Source: Escherichia phage tonn
Reading direction: 5' to 3' (one strand)
DNA: 51,012 nt
Sequence record: NC_049815.1
In this document: in pieces, positions 26,759 to 31,771 of the stretch
Position numbering within the stretch: the first letter of the stretch is position 1
Layout: each line of letters opens with the position of its first letter
Program-made: the position numbers and the translations under genes
Notes under the pieces: model-generated
Told to the model about the DNA's origin: nothing
Seen by the model: the letters and a program-made list of their open reading frames with translations, nothing else
Database searches by the model: none

Positions 26759-27235
26759 ATGAAAGATGCACGAATTGCAGTTTCTACGGGTGAGATCGAC
26801 AAGCGCACTATTAACGGTAACAACGGAACGCGACGAGGTAAAGACAAAAAGCCACGAAAACACCGAACCGGATTTCTTATCCTGCGAGATGAGGTAAAAG
26901 CAAGCCTGAAATCTCGCCTGGATATTCTGATCGAGTATTATGGCGGTGTTCCTGCTATGGCTCGACGTCTACGCGTATCTCAGCAAGTCGTTAACCAATG
27001 GCGAAAGCGTGGTATGATTTCAGCCGCTGGAGCACAAAAGGTGCATAACGACTACAAATATAATGGATGCAAAGGATACCGCGCATCATTTTGTCGTCCA
27101 GATCTGCGGTTTGATTCTAACGGTAAGCCTCTTACTACCCGTTGCGACAAATACGAGATGTTGCGCGTAGTCAAAAATTCAGACTACGAACCAGGCGGAC
27201 GATTCTACAAAGGTGATAACAGCACAAATAGCTAA
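26759..27235 (+). CDS. Cro/YdaS-like HTH DNA-binding protein (putative regulator)
   Basis: HTH-like segment GGVPAMARRLRVSQQVVNQWRKRG. Confidence 0.5.
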   Translation: MKDARIAVSTGEIDKRTINGNNGTRRGKDKKPRKHRTGFLILRDEVKASLKSRLDILIEYYGGVPAMARRLRVSQQVVNQWRKRGMISAAGAQKVHNDYKYNGCKGYRASFCRPDLRFDSNGKPLTTRCDKYEMLRVVKNSDYEPGGRFYKGDNSTNS

Positions 27236-27290
27236 TGATAAGGCTCAGCGAAATGATAATATTTGCTGGGCTTTTTTATTGAGGTTTGCC

Positions 27291-28220
27291 ATGAATACTG
27301 AAAACTTTATGACCTATCAGAAAGAAGATGTTTTGCCATATATGAAGGGGTTATGGCGTGAAGCACTACAAAGCATTTGCGGACTGCATAGCGATGTTTT
27401 CAACAAAAAGCATCAGCCTTGCCCACACTGCGGCGGTAAGGATCGTTTTAGGTGGACTGATAAGCTAAATGAAGAGGGCGACGGCGGCGCGATCTGCAAC
27501 GTATGCGGCAACGACACGGGGATCGGTTGGTTAATGAAATTAACTGGCGAACCTTACAGCGAGGCCATCAACATTTTGGGCCGCTTCCTCGGAAAAGTGC
27601 CACAAGATTACAGAATCAGAGCAAACAAACGCGCTTCGCGTTCTTCTGGTTACTCGTTCGGGAAACAGGCAAGTCATGAATGTTGCGAAAAAGTGATGGC
27701 AAAAACATTAAAATTCGATCGCACACCTTTAAGCGTTTATGAGGGGATATATCCGCCGGAAGATTGTCATTATGATTGCGGCGTCAAGGATGGTCGATAC
27801 ATTCACGCGCTACCTTGTCACCTGGTGCATGATGACGGGCTGGATGATGAAATGTGTAACGTGCTTTTCATTGATGAGGATGGAAAGGATTGGTTTTTAG
27901 CTCGCGACTACACGCGCGGATCTGTTGTTAAAACAGGTAGCACAGATAAGACGATCTATTTGTGCCTTGATTGGGTTGATTCTCAGCATGTTCATTTATC
28001 AACTGGTCAAGAGGTGTGGGCCTGTTTTACTCCTTCAAATCTTGAAATGGTTGCGCATAGATATAAAGGAGAAAGAAGAATGCGCGTAGTCTGCCGGAAA
28101 GATGATCGTGATGTGATAATCGCGGCAGAGGAAAGAGGGCTTGACATAATGATGCCTGTTAACGATAATTTTAAACATGGCGTAGAAAGAAAAATCTACA
28201 AGCCTGAATCACTGCTATAA
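27291..28220 (+). CDS. DNA primase (zinc-binding domain)
   Basis: CPHCGG...CNVCGN zinc-ribbon near N-terminus; start set to ATG 27291 with GAGG RBS. Confidence 0.6.
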   Translation: MNTENFMTYQKEDVLPYMKGLWREALQSICGLHSDVFNKKHQPCPHCGGKDRFRWTDKLNEEGDGGAICNVCGNDTGIGWLMKLTGEPYSEAINILGRFLGKVPQDYRIRANKRASRSSGYSFGKQASHECCEKVMAKTLKFDRTPLSVYEGIYPPEDCHYDCGVKDGRYIHALPCHLVHDDGLDDEMCNVLFIDEDGKDWFLARDYTRGSVVKTGSTDKTIYLCLDWVDSQHVHLSTGQEVWACFTPSNLEMVAHRYKGERRMRVVCRKDDRDVIIAAEERGLDIMMPVNDNFKHGVERKIYKPESLL

Positions 28221-28236
28221 AACTCCGCTAGTATTG

Positions 28237-28261
28237 CCCCGCTTATGCGGGGTTTTTTTTT
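28237..28261 (+). terminator. rho-independent terminator after primase gene
   Basis: CCCCGC-ttat-GCGGGG followed by T9. Confidence 0.65.
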
Positions 28262-28326
28262 GCATTTAAAAATGCTATTATCTGAATTGTCATTGGCAAA
28301 AAGTGCTATTTAGGAGGATTTTACAA

Positions 28327-30321
28327 ATGGCGATTTACAGACAAGGCCAAGCGTCTATGGACGCGCAAGGTTATGTAACTGGTTACGGTACAAAATGGCG
28401 TGAGCAATTAACCTTGATTCGCCCAGGTGCAACTATTTTCTTTCTTTCTCAACCTTTGCAAGCTGCTGTGATTACGGAAGTGATTAGCGATACAAGCATT
28501 CGCGCAATTACTACTGGCGGCGCGGTAGTACAGAAGACAAATTACCTGATCTTGCTTCATGACTCGTTAACGGTTGACGGTCTTGCGCAAGACGTAGCGG
28601 AAACGCTGCGTTATTACCAGGGGAAGGAATCGGAGTTTGCTGGATTTATTGAGATCATCAAGGATTTTGATTGGGATAAGCTACAGAAGATCCAGGAAGA
28701 CGTAAAGACAAATGCTGATGCAGCATCAGCAAGCAAGCAGGCAGCTAAAACCAGCGAGAATAACGCGAAGACAAGCGCAACAAATGCAGCGAATAGCGAG
28801 AAAGGTGCTGATACTGCAAAGGCTGCCGCTGAATCCGCGCGCGACGCTGCAAACACTGCAAAGACTGGAGCTGAAACAGCAAAGTCTGGCGCTGAATCCG
28901 CGCGTGACGCTGCGAACACTGCAAAGGCAGGAGCTGAAAGTGCGCGAGATCAAGCGGAGGAATACGCAAAGCAGGCCGCAGAACCTTACAAAGATTTATT
29001 GCAACCGTTGCCGGACGTGTGGATACCGTTTAATGATTCACTTGATATGATAACTGGTTTTGCGCCTGGGTATAAAAAGATAAAAGTTGGTGATGATGTG
29101 ATCAATATGCCGTCAGATAAAGTTGTAAATTTTAAGCGAGCATCAAAGGCGACATACATTAATAAGTCGGGATTTCTTACTGATGCTGACATTGACGAAC
29201 CGCGTTTTGAACGTGAAGGCTTGCTAATTGAGGGGCAGAGAACAAACCTTCTCATAAATAGTACCAATCCTTCAAAATGGAACAAGTCATCAAACATGGT
29301 GTTAAGCCAATCAGGAGTTGATGATTTCGGTTTTTCATTTGGCAAGTTTACATTAAAGCCAGAAATGGTAGGGAAAACATCGGCTATTAACATAGTTACA
29401 GTATCTGCTAATAAGGGTTTTGATGTTACTGGTGAAGAAAAAAGAGTAACAATCTCATGCAGAGTCAAGGGTGGTGAAGGAAACATAAGATGCAGACTTA
29501 AATTTGAAAGTTATAATGATAGCGGATATACCTTTCTAGGTGGTGCTTATCTCGGTCTTGAGGATTTGTCAATAGAAAAAACCGGCGGCGCTGCAAACAG
29601 GATAACAGCAAGAGCGGTAATGGATGAGTCAAGCAAATGGATATTTTTTGAGGCTACGATCACAGCATTAGAACAGGAAAGCATGATTGGTGCAATGGTG
29701 CAATATGCCCCGCGAAAAGGAGGAAGCACAGAAGTTGATGATTACATATACATCTCAACACCTCAATTGGAAGGTGGTGCGTGCTCGTCGTCATTTATCG
29801 TCACAGAGGGAACTCCTGCGACAAGGGCTAGTGACTTAGTTAATGTCGTGTCATTTAATAATTTAATATCTCACCCGCTTAGTTTTTTGCTTGAGGTAAA
29901 TAAAACATGGACTACCTTACCAAATTCATCGCCGAGGATATGGGATATTGGTGCGCCTGATGTTGGCGAGTCAATGGTATGCTCAATAAGAAGCGATAAA
30001 CATTCAACATACTGGAATATTGCTAGATATGGCGAGTCACCAACCGTATACATTTCCACTGAAATAAAGAATAATTATGATTCTGCTCAGGGAGCAATAA
30101 CAGTTGGCGGAGTATACGACGGGAGTTATGCGTATATCTTTTCAAATTCCGTAAAAGGGAACAAAGCAGAGGTTAAGCATGGTTTTAAGCCAACAACCAG
30201 TAAGATAATAAGATTCGGTGGCGCAGGATCTGATGGTGCTCGTCACTTTTTCGGACACTTAAGAAACTTCCGCATATGGCACAAGACACTAACAGATCAC
30301 CAAATGGGGGAAATTGTATAA
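28327..30321 (+). CDS. tail fibre protein
   Basis: ATG 28327 with AGGAGG RBS; Ala-rich 21-aa tandem repeats typical of fibre shafts; C-terminal beta-rich domain. Confidence 0.8.
   Translation: MAIYRQGQASMDAQGYVTGYGTKWREQLTLIRPGATIFFLSQPLQAAVITEVISDTSIRAITTGGAVVQKTNYLILLHDSLTVDGLAQDVAETLRYYQGKESEFAGFIEIIKDFDWDKLQKIQEDVKTNADAASASKQAAKTSENNAKTSATNAANSEKGADTAKAAAESARDAANTAKTGAETAKSGAESARDAANTAKAGAESARDQAEEYAKQAAEPYKDLLQPLPDVWIPFNDSLDMITGFAPGYKKIKVGDDVINMPSDKVVNFKRASKATYINKSGFLTDADIDEPRFEREGLLIEGQRTNLLINSTNPSKWNKSSNMVLSQSGVDDFGFSFGKFTLKPEMVGKTSAINIVTVSANKGFDVTGEEKRVTISCRVKGGEGNIRCRLKFESYNDSGYTFLGGAYLGLEDLSIEKTGGAANRITARAVMDESSKWIFFEATITALEQESMIGAMVQYAPRKGGSTEVDDYIYISTPQLEGGACSSSFIVTEGTPATRASDLVNVVSFNNLISHPLSFLLEVNKTWTTLPNSSPRIWDIGAPDVGESMVCSIRSDKHSTYWNIARYGESPTVYISTEIKNNYDSAQGAITVGGVYDGSYAYIFSNSVKGNKAEVKHGFKPTTSKIIRFGGAGSDGARHFFGHLRNFRIWHKTLTDHQMGEIV
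28828..28953 (+). repeat. two tandem 63-bp direct repeats inside the tail fibre gene
   Basis: GCTGAATCCGCGCG(C/T)GACGCTGC(A/G)AACACTGCAAAG... repeated at 28828 and 28891. Confidence 0.7.
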
Positions 30322-30599
30322 TGCGTGATTTAACACTGAAATTTGTAGACAAGGCGGAGTTTTCCGCCTTTATTGAAAAAATCGAATGGAAAGAAAACGA
30401 AAATATTCAGAATGCAATCCTGCTCGATGTAATCGGTACTACTTACACAGTAGTTGCACGATCTGACGATGGCGATGAGATTGCACAAAAGAACGACGGT
30501 TATTTTGTCAATGTTCGAATCATTGATAATAAGTTTGATTCCGTAATTTTTAATGATTATGTTGTTGAGTTGGATCAGCCGATTAGAGAATGGGCTTAA
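30321..30599 (+). CDS. hypothetical protein (fibre-associated?)
   Basis: 92 aa; TAATG coupling to tail fibre gene. Confidence 0.45.
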   Translation: MRDLTLKFVDKAEFSAFIEKIEWKENENIQNAILLDVIGTTYTVVARSDDGDEIAQKNDGYFVNVRIIDNKFDSVIFNDYVVELDQPIREWA

Positions 30600-30605
30600 G
30601 GAGTT

Positions 30606-31286
30606 ATGAAAATGGCTACAGTTACTAATATTCCTGGTGATATAACGAAGCTGAAAAGTGATGTTTCGACACTAAAACAGGATGTTGCAGGAAAAGCATC
30701 AACTACTGATGTTGACAATAAGTTGAAGCTGTATCTAAAACAAACTGATCTATCATCCGAGTTGGATAGCGGAAGGTATAGTGGGAGTTTTTACCCACTA
30801 ACTGGTAACGATGCATTTTATTTATTTAATCTTAACACAACCGCTCAATCAGCAAACTTATGGCTTGATCCAAATGCTGGAGTGTCGCAAGTTTTACGCT
30901 CCACTTCCTCTTCTCGTTATAAGCGCAGCGTAGAATCGGTTATTGATGAATATGCGGATCTGATGCTTGAAATGCGTCCTGTGTGGTATCGGTCAACTTG
31001 TGAAAGCGACCGTAAAGATTGGGGATGGTACGGGCTAATCGCGGAAGAGGTTGGAGAAATTGCGCCGGAGTACGTTCACTGGCGACCGCTGCAAGAAGGA
31101 GAAGATCCTGCCATTGCTTCAAGTAATGGCATGGTAGCGGAAGGCGTTATGTATGACCGCCTCACTGTTCCACTGATTCACCACGTTAAGAAACTGAAAG
31201 CGGAAAACGATGAGATGAGAAAAGAAATTGACGAGCTAAAAGCGGTTGTAGCGGCACTGGTAAACAAACCAACCACGTTAGACTAA
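30606..31286 (+). CDS. protein with peptidase S74 / intramolecular chaperone-like domain (fibre accessory)
   Basis: S.RYKRSVESV..EY..LMLEMRPVWYR...WYGLIAEEV.EIAPEYV pattern resembling the autoproteolytic chaperone domain of endosialidase-type fibres. Confidence 0.55.
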   Translation: MKMATVTNIPGDITKLKSDVSTLKQDVAGKASTTDVDNKLKLYLKQTDLSSELDSGRYSGSFYPLTGNDAFYLFNLNTTAQSANLWLDPNAGVSQVLRSTSSSRYKRSVESVIDEYADLMLEMRPVWYRSTCESDRKDWGWYGLIAEEVGEIAPEYVHWRPLQEGEDPAIASSNGMVAEGVMYDRLTVPLIHHVKKLKAENDEMRKEIDELKAVVAALVNKPTTLD

Positions 31287-31315
31287 AAAATGCCCCGCAT
31301 ATGCGGGGCTTTTTG
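31285..31315. terminator. bidirectional rho-independent terminator between convergent fibre and SSB units
   Basis: GCCCCGC-atat-GCGGGGC with flanking A6 and T5. Confidence 0.65.
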
Positions 31316-31318
31316 TTA

Positions 31319-31771
31319 TCAGAATGGTATATCGTCGTCAAAGTCAATCGGAGGCTGATTGCTTTGCTGCGGCTGCTGTTGAGTATTTTGTTTCTGTTGC
31401 TGTTGTGGTTGCCCCCAGCCTCCTTGCGTTCGCTGCTGATATTGTTGCTGGCTTTCACCTCTCTGGCTAAATAGCAAGTTTGCAAATCCGCCAGGCTGCA
31501 CGGTGCTGTAAATCTTTCCGTTGTATTCTCGCGTTTCAACTCGCAAGGTATCGCAGGAAACAGAAACAACCTTTCCTACCTGGAACGCCTCGGCATACCA
31601 ACCATTCAGGCCGTCTGTTTTCGCATTAAAGAAAAACACATAGTTTGTATACTGCCAATTTCCTTCTCGGTCTTTGTATCGCTCGGAAAGCTCAATAACA
31701 TATAGCGTGCTGCCGTTAGGCATTTGCTTTACTTTTGGCTCTTTTCGAATCTCACCTGTAATAACGTGCAT
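31319..31771 (-). CDS. ssb: single-stranded DNA-binding protein
   Basis: OB-fold-like N-terminal domain, Gly/Gln-rich linker and C-terminal acidic tail DFDDDIPF; AGGAGAAAACAAA RBS before ATG 31771. Confidence 0.85.
   Translation of the reverse strand: MHVITGEIRKEPKVKQMPNGSTLYVIELSERYKDREGNWQYTNYVFFFNAKTDGLNGWYAEAFQVGKVVSVSCDTLRVETREYNGKIYSTVQPGGFANLLFSQRGESQQQYQQRTQGGWGQPQQQQKQNTQQQPQQSNQPPIDFDDDIPF

What the first reader, a model, noticed from the sequence alone, without database searches (positions are those of the whole stretch)
28327..31286. Tail fibre with 63-bp tandem repeats and a separately encoded S74 chaperone-domain protein
The fibre gene contains two near-identical 63-bp tandem repeats (28828..28953) encoding 21-aa Ala-rich units, a substrate for length variation by slippage or recombination. 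The intramolecular-chaperone (peptidase S74-like) domain that is normally the cleaved C-terminus of such fibres is instead on a separate 226-aa protein (30606..31286) with a coiled-coil-like N-terminus, after an intervening 92-aa gene. This suggests a trans-acting chaperone or a second fibre/spike fragment.
Basis: partly seen in the sequence, partly recalled or inferred. Interest (0 to 1): 0.5.

Follow-up and report, generated by a model that had tools for sequence, protein, structure and literature searches.

The report
Two-fibre lateral tail-fibre gene cassette
This is the side-fibre operon of a T1-like coliphage, in which the small protein carrying the "chaperone" domain is most likely a second, self-folding mini-fibre that plugs onto the main fibre and not a helper that folds it; this is a known design, seen here in a little-studied, widely shared cassette.

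Summary
The window is a Warwickvirus (T1-like, Drexlerviridae), 99.5% identical to phage ityhuna across this locus. Between two near-identical terminators lies a three-gene operon:
- a 664-aa lateral fibre (28327..30321);
- a 92-aa protein (30321..30599);
- a 224/226-aa protein with a genuine Peptidase_S74 intramolecular-chaperone (IMC) domain (30612/30606..31286).

The 63-bp repeat is real, but its best register is 28813/28814 and its copies are 85-89% identical. Its copy number does not vary in 15 T1-like relatives.

The "trans-acting chaperone" reading is not supported. The fibre-plus-92-aa pair occurs without the S74 gene in 43 of 80 related loci. In 34 loci the third gene starts with the same 15-residue N-terminal peptide (MATxTxIPxDITxLK). 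Its distal modules differ, and each brings its own folding aid, either an IMC or a separate Tfa chaperone.

The S74 gene carries independent frameshifts or stop codons in about a third of Warwickvirus isolates, while the fibre gene stays intact. Intact copies are nevertheless under purifying selection (dN/dS 0.06-0.21).

Best reading: an optional, self-chaperoned branch fibre, cleaved at T100|S101, and the smallest allele of a modular second-fibre slot. It is ordinary in principle and modestly interesting in detail.

The parts
28236..28253 (+). Intrinsic terminator after the primase gene; upstream boundary of the fibre operon
   Evidence: GCCCCGCTTATGCGGGGT followed by T8. Nearly the same hairpin as the downstream terminator.
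28327..30321 (+). Fibre A: lateral (side) tail fibre protein, 664 aa
   Evidence: ORF with an AGGAGG ribosome-binding site at 28312-28317. PHROG tail fibre/tail protein families. Annotated as lateral tail fiber protein in BASEL relatives.
28327..28851 (+). Fibre A N-terminal virion-anchor domain plus the start of the coil (aa 1-175)
   Evidence: phmmer E 1.7e-54 to residues 1-175 of PDB 7vyv/7vz3/7lzj 'Depolymerase'. According to the BASEL paper, the far N-terminus is the only part of the fibre that is highly related across Drexlerviridae.
28699..29001 (+). Ala-rich heptad (coiled-coil) shaft of fibre A, aa ~125-225
   Evidence: About 12 consecutive A-x-x-[AS]-x-x-x heptads, read directly from the translation. 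Constant length in 15 T1-like relatives.
28799..28939 (+). 63-bp tandem repeat (2.2 copies), equal to three heptads per unit
   Evidence: TRF period 63, 85% matches, score 212. Best register 28813/28814, 56/63 identical. Annotated as repeat_region in phage ityhuna.
28975..29247 (+). Conserved 'neck' of fibre A (aa ~217-307); candidate docking region (inferred)
   Evidence: Highly conserved between T1-like and lambdoid cassettes. DNA identity to relatives stays at 87-94% up to 29247.
29247..30248 (+). Hypervariable distal domains of fibre A (aa ~307-641); the likely receptor-binding part
   Evidence: DNA homology to other Warwickviruses breaks at 29247 or ~29840 and resumes at 30248. NCBIfam GTA_spike_fiber at aa 300-501, 66 bits against a cut-off of 36. 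PDB RcGTA head spike fibre 6tb9, E 2.6e-5. Weak Laminin_G_3 hit at aa 593-659.
30321..30599 (+). 92-aa protein invariably coupled to fibre A; function unknown
30612..31286 (+). Fibre B: self-chaperoned mini-fibre, 224 aa (226 aa if read from the ATG at 30606)
   Evidence: AAGGAG 8 nt upstream. The start is conserved in relatives, whereas 30606 is AGG in most. dN/dS 0.06-0.21.
30612..30656 (+). Conserved N-terminal adaptor peptide MATVTNIPGDITKLK
   Evidence: 60-100% identical over 15 aa among third-gene products whose remainder is unrelated. Also matches the N-termini of phrog_4563 and phrog_19752.
30630..30692 (+). 21-aa (63-bp) coil unit IPGDITKLKSDVSTLKQDVAG of fibre B; one copy here
   Evidence: Two copies in SECphi27, tunus, AV105, orkinos, tuinn and EC195; +7 aa in PeterMerian, JLBYU07, JLBYU10 and Phunderstruck; an out-of-frame partial duplication in KMB46.
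30771..30905 (+). Small fibre tip (aa ~56-100), the passenger folded by the IMC; ends at T100
   Evidence: T78 and T79 are invariant; A83, N84, R98, S99 and T100 are nearly invariant, together with the IMC.
30906..31283 (+). Peptidase_S74 intramolecular chaperone domain (aa 101-226); predicted cleavage before S101, with K106 as general base
   Evidence: Pfam S74 profile position 1 aligns to S101. K106, Y105 and E110 are invariant; S101 and S102 are at least 90% conserved. Same T|S...K(+5) spacing as T5 pb1 T1263|S1264...K1269. Fold hits 7dc3, 3gud and 3gw6.
31292..31309 (.). Bidirectional intrinsic terminator shared with the convergent SSB gene; downstream boundary of the operon
   Evidence: GCCCCGCATATGCGGGGC with T-runs on both strands.

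Best explanation
The locus is a self-contained, three-gene lateral tail-fibre cassette that builds a two-component (anchor plus branch) fibre.

**Fibre A (664 aa).** It attaches to the tail through its T1-type N-terminal domain and extends as an Ala-rich trimeric coiled coil. It ends in two exchangeable beta-sandwich, lectin-like domains that probably bind surface glycans.

**The 92-aa protein.** It is an obligatory partner of fibre A, acting as an assembly factor or a docking platform. Which of the two is not resolved.

**The 224-aa S74 protein (fibre B).** It is an optional second fibre.
- Its first ~15 residues are a conserved adaptor peptide that docks it onto the conserved part of the A/92-aa assembly.
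- A short coiled coil of variable length (7- and 21-residue steps) acts as a stalk.
- Residues ~56-100 form a tiny trimeric tip.
- The C-terminal 126-residue IMC trimerises and folds that tip in cis. It then removes itself by Ser101/Lys106 autoproteolysis at T100|S101, leaving a mature trimer of ~98 residues per chain.

The S74 domain therefore serves its own polypeptide and not fibre A.

**Shown:** gene structure, domain identities, the conserved peptide, modular replacement of the third gene, its optional presence, purifying selection, and recurrent inactivation.

**Inferred:** physical docking, autocleavage, presence in the virion, and the ligand.
For: **Genuine IMC with a substrate in cis.**
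- Pfam S74 hit at the gathering score; 29 of 30 homologues hit S74.
- Fold match to MyRF, GA-1 and K1F IMC domains.
- K106 is invariant; S101, T100 and R98 are nearly invariant, together with upstream T78, T79, A83 and N84.
- The T|S...K(+5) geometry is identical to T5 pb1 (PMC4690869).

**The slot holds interchangeable fibres.**
- Among 80 IMG/VR loci found with the 92-aa protein, 34 have a third gene that begins M[AV]TxTxIPxDI[TK]xLK.
- The distal parts fall into at least four unrelated types: the 227-241-aa S74 mini-fibre; a 345-351-aa type with S74 at ~225-278 (48-59 bits); a 583-aa type with S74 at 464-516; and a 330/340-aa Gp34_trimer type followed by a separate Caudo_TAP chaperone.
- Each allele brings its own folding aid.

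**The third gene is optional.** Fibre A plus the 92-aa gene are adjacent in 79 of 80 loci. In 43 of 80 no third fibre gene follows.

**The cassette is conserved as a unit.** It occurs in Hanrivervirus and in lambdoid temperate phages after J-lom, with a lambda-Stf-type N-terminus. The S74 gene is found in 810 of 5,426 complete E. coli genomes.

**Selection.** dN/dS is 0.06-0.21 for intact copies, the lowest of the three genes in most comparisons that could be computed.

**Accessory status.** Nine independent frameshift or nonsense events lie in the S74 gene. None lies in fibre A or the 92-aa gene across 14 T1-like loci.

**Coil length.** The coil of fibre B varies in heptad steps, as expected of a stalk.

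**Homologous tip-plus-IMC blocks end bona fide fibres.** Examples are P0034 with the Phage_tail_fib N-terminal domain, and P0039/P0040 with LQTAR..FDG repeats.

**Literature precedent** for second receptor-binding proteins docked by a conserved N-terminal peptide, and for branched LtfA/LtfB fibres: PMC6872550 and PMC4728585.
Against: - No direct evidence that the protein is in virions. The literature searches run here turned up no virion proteomics for this protein, and the T1-like phage proteomes read do not list it.
- Docking is inferred from a conserved peptide alone. No multimer prediction could be run, and no T4gp10-like branching domain was detected in fibre A by Pfam.
- The mature passenger (~98 aa, tip ~45 aa) is far smaller than any IMC passenger characterised so far. 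It is highly conserved (92-97% within the genus) while fibre A's distal domains vary. That is unusual for a receptor-binding tip and would also fit a structural or regulatory role.
- The N-terminal half of the AlphaFold monomer model has low confidence (pLDDT 30-60).
- The 80 IMG/VR loci are redundant: only 31 distinct 92-aa sequences, apparently mostly enterobacterial prophages.
- Some frameshifts sit in short homopolymers and could be sequencing errors. One of the records is flagged UNVERIFIED.
Confidence: 0.68

Rival explanations
1. Trans-acting chaperone. The S74 protein folds or trimerises fibre A (or caps it during assembly) and is not itself a functional fibre. This is the sense of the BASEL annotation 'putative lateral tail fiber chaperone'.
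For: - It lies in the same operon as fibre A.
- It carries a chaperone-type domain.
- It is annotated this way in PeterMerian and KarlJaspers.
- It is more conserved than fibre A's variable domains.
Against: - Fibre A plus the 92-aa gene occur without it in 43 of 80 loci.
- It is knocked out in about a third of Warwickvirus records while fibre A, a target three times larger, is never hit. The chance of nine of nine events falling in it by length alone is ~2e-6.
- The slot is filled elsewhere by proteins with large passengers of their own, or by a fibre with its own Tfa.
- The cleavage site and the upstream tip are conserved in cis.
- Fibre A's distal domains are globular beta-sandwiches: RcGTA head-spike-fibre-like and LamG-like. 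They are not the triple-beta-helix or interdigitated tips that IMCs are known to fold (PMC4690869).
Confidence: 0.1
2. Evolutionary relic. The ORF is the leftover 3' end of an ancestral single-polypeptide fibre with a C-terminal IMC (as in phage PGN590), stranded when the middle of the gene was replaced by the lectin-type module. It is now decaying.
For: - PHROG families 5481, 1980 and 6578 hold both the T1-type fibre N-terminus and this C-terminus.
- PGN590 has a one-gene fibre with an IMC at the same locus.
- Many isolates carry disrupted copies.
Against: - It has its own ribosome-binding site and a conserved start.
- dN/dS is 0.06-0.21.
- Each disrupted copy carries a single lesion in an otherwise open frame, so the lesions are recent.
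- The N-terminal adaptor peptide is shared with other third-gene alleles.
- It is conserved at 55% identity in lambdoid phages and found in 810 of 5,426 E. coli genomes.
Confidence: 0.04
3. Docked regulator or cap. The protein does attach through its adaptor peptide, but its role is to mask, brace or regulate fibre A and not to bind a receptor. Comparable cases are transient chaperone caps and T4 fibritin whiskers.
For: - It is strongly conserved while fibre A's receptor domains vary.
- The tip is tiny.
- In T5 the uncleaved IMC masks the binding site (PMC4690869).
- Chaperone 'caps' are described for Alteromonas phages (PMC10579305, cited).
- Recurrent loss in laboratory isolates would fit relief of an inhibitory element.
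Against: - Larger alleles in the same slot have passengers of 220-460 aa, or a gp34/gp37-like fibre with its own Tfa. These look like ordinary receptor-binding fibres.
- No evidence of interaction with fibre A's distal domains.
- The catalytic dyad is conserved, which argues for release of the IMC.
Confidence: 0.12

Closest known systems
[quoted passage not shown]
   Same: A C-terminal ~130-residue IMC with a central helix. The scissile bond is Thr|Ser, with Lys five residues after the Ser. It is the lateral fibre of a siphovirus and is dispensable on rough K-12.
   Different: In T5 the IMC ends a 1,396-aa single polypeptide and folds a ~290-aa bullet-shaped domain. Here it makes up more than half of a 224-aa separate protein whose passenger is ~98 aa. 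Sequence similarity is limited to the S74 motif.
Branched lateral fibres LtfA/LtfB of T5-like phages DT57C and DT571/2 (PMC4728585, PMC10713586)
   Same: Two fibre proteins encoded side by side. One anchors to the tail and the second attaches to the first.
   Different: No sequence relationship was tested or found. An extra 92-aa gene lies between the two here. Fibre B is minimal. Branching is inferred here and has not been demonstrated.
Anchor-branch dual receptor-binding proteins with a conserved N-terminal peptide (Klebsiella KP32/KP34 groups, G7C, K1-5/SP6; PMC6872550)
   Same: The second receptor-binding protein lacks a virion anchor and carries a short conserved N-terminal peptide, while its distal part is freely exchanged. 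Truncated second proteins are common.
   Different: Those systems are in podoviruses and myoviruses and use a T4gp10-like branching domain. No such domain was detected here by Pfam, and the peptide sequence (MATxTxIPxDITxLK) is different.
K1F endosialidase / GA-1 neck appendage / MyRF ICA domains (PDB 3GW6, 3GUD, 7DC3)
   Same: Same fold by Foldseek and the same Ser-Lys motif.
   Different: Different passengers: a sialidase beta-propeller plus stalk, an appendage, and a eukaryotic transcription factor.
Lambda Stf-Tfa side tail fibre locus
   Same: The same genomic slot (after J-lom) holds this cassette in lambdoid phages IdasGreatGrand and PhiR55_1, with a lambda-Stf-type N-terminus. Both are accessory fibres. 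From general knowledge, laboratory lambda PaPa carries an stf frameshift.
   Different: Lambda uses a separate Tfa (Caudo_TAP) chaperone and a single fibre protein. Here there is a 92-aa protein of unrelated fold plus an optional second fibre.

Membership tests
Peptidase S74 / intramolecular chaperone auto-processing (IMC/ICA) domain | Match to the Pfam PF13884 profile at or above the gathering score | tested here: met
   22.1 bits against a gathering score of 22.0, residues 101-157 on profile positions 1-57. This is marginal on its own, but 29 of 30 aligned homologues also match, best E 9.2e-9.
Peptidase S74 / intramolecular chaperone auto-processing (IMC/ICA) domain | Nucleophilic Ser at the domain start, with the catalytic Lys five residues downstream | tested here: met
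   The sequence reads S101-S-S-R-Y-K106. K106 is invariant and S101 is at least 90% conserved in 30 homologues. The T100|S101...K106 spacing is the same as T1263|S1264...K1269 in T5 pb1.
Peptidase S74 / intramolecular chaperone auto-processing (IMC/ICA) domain | IMC fold: mixed alpha/beta region, beta-hairpin and a long C-terminal helix | tested here: met
   In the AF2 model, residues 110-226 have pLDDT 77-96, and helix 183-219 is present. Foldseek hits 7dc3 (E 7.8e-5, prob 1.0), 3gud and 3gw6. TM-scores are modest (0.39/0.60) because a monomer of an obligate trimer was modelled.
Peptidase S74 / intramolecular chaperone auto-processing (IMC/ICA) domain | C-terminal position, with a trimeric passenger immediately upstream in the same chain | tested here: met
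   The domain is C-terminal. Residues ~56-100 are conserved together with it. Homologues carry longer fibre shafts upstream.
Peptidase S74 / intramolecular chaperone auto-processing (IMC/ICA) domain | Autoproteolytic release after trimerisation | not testable with these tools
   Needs expression of wild type against S101A/K106A mutants, or virion mass spectrometry.
Anchor-branch (dual receptor-binding protein) fibre systems | The first protein carries the virion anchor; the second lacks it | tested here: met
   Fibre A aa 1-175 matches the N-terminus of PDB 7vyv/7lzj (E 1.7e-54). According to the BASEL paper, the far N-terminus is the part of the fibre that is conserved across the family. Fibre B has no such domain.
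Anchor-branch (dual receptor-binding protein) fibre systems | A short conserved N-terminal peptide on the second protein, with exchangeable distal modules | tested here: met
   The first 15 aa are 60-100% identical among at least four distal types that share no other similarity, or only ~25% within the IMC.
Anchor-branch (dual receptor-binding protein) fibre systems | A recognisable branching domain (T4gp10-like) in the first protein | tested here: inconclusive
   No such domain appeared in the Pfam, NCBIfam or PHROG scans of fibre A. The 92-aa protein might play this role.
Anchor-branch (dual receptor-binding protein) fibre systems | Physical attachment of the second protein to the first | not testable with these tools
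   Only monomer structure prediction was available.
Tail fibre assembly chaperones (Caudo_TAP / lambda Tfa, Mu U, T4 gp38/gp57A), considered for the 92-aa protein | Sequence or fold similarity to a known Tfa family | tested here: not met
RcGTA head-spike-fibre domain (NF048003), for fibre A's central domain | NCBIfam profile match above the curated cut-off | tested here: met
   66 bits against a cut-off of 36, aa 300-501. phmmer E 2.6e-5 to PDB 6tb9 Rcc01080. PGAP names prophage homologues the same way.

The most novel reading that the evidence does not exclude
The 92-aa protein is a previously unrecognised branching adaptor. It turns a lectin-type side fibre into a plug-in socket for any protein that starts with MATxTxIPxDITxLK. 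The ~98-residue mature product of the S74 gene would then be the smallest IMC-folded fibre known. It would bind a conserved (non-O-antigen) surface structure, and its binding would be counter-selected during isolation on laboratory strains. That would explain why about a third of sequenced Warwickviruses carry fresh knock-outs of exactly this gene.
Probability: 0.25. Interest if true: 0.6.

Novelty: new member of a known kind. Interest (0 to 1): 0.4.

Why it matters
Lateral fibres decide which surface glycans a siphovirus can use, and they are the main target of host-range engineering.

This cassette is shared by virulent T1-like phages and by lambdoid prophages. The third gene matches DNA in 810 of 5,426 complete E. 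coli genomes. It appears to have a defined socket (fibre A plus the 92-aa protein) and a 15-residue plug that accepts unrelated distal modules. That would make it a natural plug-and-play system.

Public records label the third gene 'chaperone'. The label probably misleads: it suggests the gene cannot be removed without losing the main fibre, whereas natural isolates lose it repeatedly.

The recurrent knock-outs are also a warning. Sequenced laboratory isolates may not represent the wild fibre complement, as happened with lambda PaPa.

Tried and rejected
1. **Relic hypothesis.** The PHROG matches suggested that the 226-aa ORF maps to the ends of long fibres. Rejected after the dN/dS values, the conserved start and adaptor peptide, and conservation in lambdoid phages.
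2. **Copy-number variation of the fibre's 63-bp repeat.** None was found in 15 T1-like relatives. The 63-bp length differences between records (for example SECphi27, 3,264 against 3,201 bases) lie in the S74 gene.
3. **Contingency-locus idea for the frameshifts.** Only three of five frameshift sites lie in A4/T5 runs, and three further lesions are substitutions to stop codons. The contingency-loci preprint does not address this gene.
4. **PDB sequence search with the S74 protein.** Nothing useful came back. Only the fold search worked.
6. **Virion proteomics in the literature.** The T1-like phage proteomes read do not report this protein.
7. **Promoter scan.** No convincing sigma-70 promoter lies upstream of 28327, and the number of sites is no greater than in shuffled sequence.
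8. **Structure prediction with lambdoid 92-aa sequences in the alignment.** It was rerun without them.


Full report
**Identity and layout**

The region 28200..31400 is 99.5% identical to Escherichia phage ityhuna and 97-99% identical to KMB46, JLBYU01 and SECphi27. All are Warwickvirus, Tempevirinae, Drexlerviridae, that is, T1-like siphoviruses.

The finding lies between the primase gene and the convergent SSB gene. The BASEL papers describe this position as the lateral tail fibre locus of Drexlerviridae. They report it as very diverse, with the fibre proteins highly related only at the far N-terminus.

Two almost identical G+C-rich hairpin terminators bound the unit, at 28236..28253 and 31292..31309. 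Between them are three genes on the + strand:
- the fibre, 28327..30321, 664 aa, with an AGGAGG ribosome-binding site;
- a 92-aa gene, 30321..30599, overlapping the fibre stop codon as TAATG;
- the S74 gene, 30606 or 30612..31286.

**Checking the observation**

Tandem Repeats Finder reports a 63-bp period at 28799..28939, with 2.2 copies, 85% matches and score 212.
- The best register starts at 28813/28814, with 56 of 63 identical.
- The repeat is three heptads of a run of about twelve Ala-rich heptads (aa ~125-225), which is a coiled-coil shaft.

The small protein matches Pfam Peptidase_S74 at residues 101-157 with 22.1 bits, against a gathering score of 22.0. Three results confirm this marginal hit:
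- 29 of 30 homologues match S74, best E 9e-9.
- An AlphaFold model is confident over residues 110-226.
- The model's best PDB neighbours are the MyRF ICA domain (7dc3, E 8e-5), the GA-1 appendage IMC (3gud) and the K1F endosialidase IMC (3gw6).

The start codon is better placed at 30612. AAGGAG lies 8 nt upstream of it, and the ATG at 30606 reads AGG in most relatives.

**Anatomy of the three proteins**

*Fibre A*
- Residues 1-175 match the N-terminus of solved 'Depolymerase' chains 7vyv, 7vz3 and 7lzj at E 2e-54. This is the virion anchor plus the start of the coil.
- Residues 300-501 match the NCBIfam GTA_spike_fiber domain (66 bits, cut-off 36) and the RcGTA head spike fibre in the PDB.
- The C-terminus has a weak Laminin_G_3 match.
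- DNA comparison with eight other Warwickviruses and one Hanrivervirus (KarlJaspers) shows homology breaking at 29247 or ~29840 and resuming at 30248. The exchangeable, presumably receptor-binding, part is therefore aa ~307-641. Everything else, including the 92-aa and S74 genes, belongs to the conserved frame.

*The 92-aa protein*
- It models confidently (pLDDT 92) as a small alpha+beta fold.
- It has no informative structural or profile neighbour.
- It belongs to a narrow family of stand-alone ~90-100-aa proteins.

*The S74 protein*
- A conserved N-terminal peptide.
- A heptad coil.
- A short conserved stretch (aa ~56-100, with T78 and T79 invariant and A83, N84, R98, S99 and T100 nearly invariant).
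- The motif S101-S-S-R-Y-K106, with K106 invariant. This reproduces the T|S...K(+5) arrangement of T5 pb1, T1263|S1264...K1269 (PMC4690869).

**Is it a relic?**

PHROG matches place the protein at the C-terminal ends of long fibre families. Several of those families also contain the T1-type fibre N-terminus. Phage PGN590 has a one-gene fibre with an IMC at this locus. A stranded gene end was therefore a reasonable idea.

It fails on four counts:
- The fibre/92-aa/S74 trio is conserved as a unit in Hanrivervirus KarlJaspers. It is also conserved in lambdoid temperate phages, after J-lom, with a lambda-Stf-type N-terminus.
- Intact copies have dN/dS of 0.06-0.21.
- Stand-alone proteins of ~225-235 aa dominate the homologue list, with clusters of 2,928 and 650 members.
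- DNA at least 90% identical to the lambdoid copy occurs in 810 of 5,426 complete E. coli genomes. PGAP calls it 'tail fiber domain-containing protein', next to a 'phage head spike fiber domain-containing protein'.

**Is it a trans-acting chaperone for fibre A?**

Three independent lines say no.

1. *Gene content.* IMG/VR was scanned with the 92-aa alignment, giving 80 loci.
   - The 92-aa gene sits directly after a fibre with this distal architecture in 79 of them.
   - In 43 of the 80, no third fibre gene follows. A ~97-aa membrane-protein gene comes next.
   - Fibre A and the 92-aa protein are therefore the obligatory pair, and the third gene is optional.

2. *What fills the slot.* In 34 loci the third gene begins with the same peptide, M[AV]TxTxIPxDI[TK]xLK. 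It continues in at least four different ways:
   - the S74 mini-fibre (227-241 aa);
   - a 345-351-aa type with a ~220-aa passenger and a strong S74 domain (48-59 bits);
   - a 583-aa type with S74 at 464-516;
   - a 330/340-aa type with a Gp34_trimer domain, followed by its own Caudo_TAP assembly chaperone.

   The first 15 residues are 60-100% identical across these types. The rest is unrelated, or ~25% identical within the IMC only. This is the signature of a second receptor-binding protein docked by a conserved N-terminal peptide. It has been described for Klebsiella, G7C and K1-5 systems (PMC6872550), and it is analogous to the branched LtfA/LtfB fibres of DT57C. Each allele brings its own folding aid, so the IMC here serves its own chain.

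3. *Natural knock-outs.* In 14 T1-like loci the fibre and 92-aa genes are intact everywhere. The S74 gene carries nine independent lesions:

   | Phage | Lesion | Window position |
   |---|---|---|
   | brachmannus | 1-nt deletion | 30737 |
   | AV105 and orkinos | +1 in a T5 run | 30793 |
   | JLBYU10 | +2 | 30840 |
   | ityhuna | 1-nt deletion | 30985 |
   | SECphi27 | 1-nt deletion | 31238 |
   | KMB46 | out-of-frame partial repeat duplication | N-terminal coil |
   | Phunderstruck | GGA>TGA | 31023 |
   | tuinn | GAG>TAG | 31047 |
   | EC195 and JLBYU07 | TAC>TAA | 31071 |

   - Each copy has a single lesion in an otherwise open frame, so the events are recent.
   - If lesions fell by gene length, the chance that all nine hit the S74 gene is about (226/982)^9, or ~2e-6.
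   - If the protein were needed to fold fibre A, the fibre gene, a target three times larger, should decay equally.
   - By the tblastn listing, about 12 of ~37 distinct records are affected.
   - Caveats: some frameshifts lie in short homopolymers, one record is flagged UNVERIFIED, and most of these phages were isolated on K-12.

**Repeats and length variation**

The fibre's Ala-rich coil has identical length in all 15 T1-like fibres aligned. It is longer only in the lambdoid versions and in PGN590. There is thus no sign of ongoing slippage at the 63-bp repeat.

A different 63-bp unit does vary. It encodes IPGDITKLKSDVSTLKQDVA(G/T) in the coil of the S74 gene.
- One copy here.
- Two in SECphi27, tunus, AV105, orkinos, tuinn and EC195.
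- One extra heptad in PeterMerian, JLBYU07, JLBYU10 and Phunderstruck.
- A 50-bp out-of-frame duplication in KMB46.

Variation in heptad steps fits a stalk.

**Mechanism proposed**

*Shown:* domain identities, operon structure, the conserved plug peptide, modular and optional use of the third slot, purifying selection, and recurrent recent loss.

*Inferred:*
- Fibre B trimerises on its IMC, which folds the ~45-residue tip and coil.
- Ser101, activated by Lys106, cuts T100|S101. The IMC leaves, and a mature trimer of ~98 residues per chain remains.
- The mature trimer docks through its N-terminal peptide on a conserved part of the fibre A/92-aa assembly. Candidates are the neck, aa 217-307, and the 92-aa protein itself.

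Its ligand is unknown. Its strong conservation suggests a conserved surface structure or a structural or regulatory role, not O-antigen specificity.

**Comparison and novelty**

The S74 domain passes every membership test that could be run. The system behaves like known anchor-branch fibres, but no T4gp10-like branching domain was detected, and attachment could not be tested.

Public records already annotate the gene as 'chaperone of endosialidase', 'putative lateral tail fiber chaperone' or 'tail fiber domain-containing protein'. The ityhuna record marks the repeat. The objects themselves are therefore not new.

What this analysis adds is the reinterpretation as a self-chaperoned branch fibre, the plug peptide, the invariable fibre/92-aa pairing, and the knock-out pattern. 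I rate it a new member of known kinds, of moderate interest.

Noticed in passing
window 30612..31286, and loci L002, L008, L010-L017: The S74 gene is intact in this window. In relatives it carries nine independent single-hit frameshift or nonsense lesions, while the neighbouring fibre gene, three times longer, is never disrupted. About 12 of ~37 distinct records are affected. This may be laboratory or host adaptation, comparable to the lambda PaPa stf frameshift.
   Followed up: yes
window 30630..30692; L001, L007, L008, L011, L012, L014, L015: A 63-bp (21-aa) unit in the coil of the S74 gene varies in copy number between close relatives (1 or 2 copies, or +7 aa). KMB46 has a 50-bp out-of-frame partial duplication of it.
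   Followed up: yes
window 28236..28253 and 31292..31309: The two terminators that bracket the fibre operon have nearly the same hairpin (GCCCCGC[T/A]TATGCGGGG[T/C]). They might serve as short homology for cassette exchange. This was not tested.
   Followed up: no
L005 5719..6006, L006 5688..5981, and many of L022-L099: In lambdoid prophages the cassette is followed by a conserved ~95-99-aa protein that looks like a membrane protein (MDI[ST]PxLHALCAVAAQ...). It is absent from the T1-like phages. It could be a superinfection-exclusion or lysogenic-conversion gene.
   Followed up: no
L019 6048..7947: In one E. coli prophage, a reverse-transcriptase-domain gene plus a SLATT-domain gene sits immediately downstream of the fibre cassette. 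This looks like a defence system in the usual moron position.
   Followed up: no
L018 3706..5946: A DLP12-like prophage remnant (essD-rrrD-rzpD ... appY-ompT) in E. coli L2_E1649 keeps a truncated fibre A (314 aa), the ~93-aa gene, an intact 234-aa S74 gene and the membrane-protein gene.
   Followed up: no
L004 5836..7660 (phage KarlJaspers): Hanrivervirus KarlJaspers carries four extra genes after its S74 gene, among them one annotated 'putative sugar-binding protein'. These are absent from the window. The locus can therefore hold further accessory host-recognition genes.
   Followed up: no
window 27213..28220: The mechanical ORF for the primase starts at a GTG and gives 335 aa. Relatives annotate a 930-nt (309-aa) gene, so the true start is probably downstream of 27213.
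   Followed up: no
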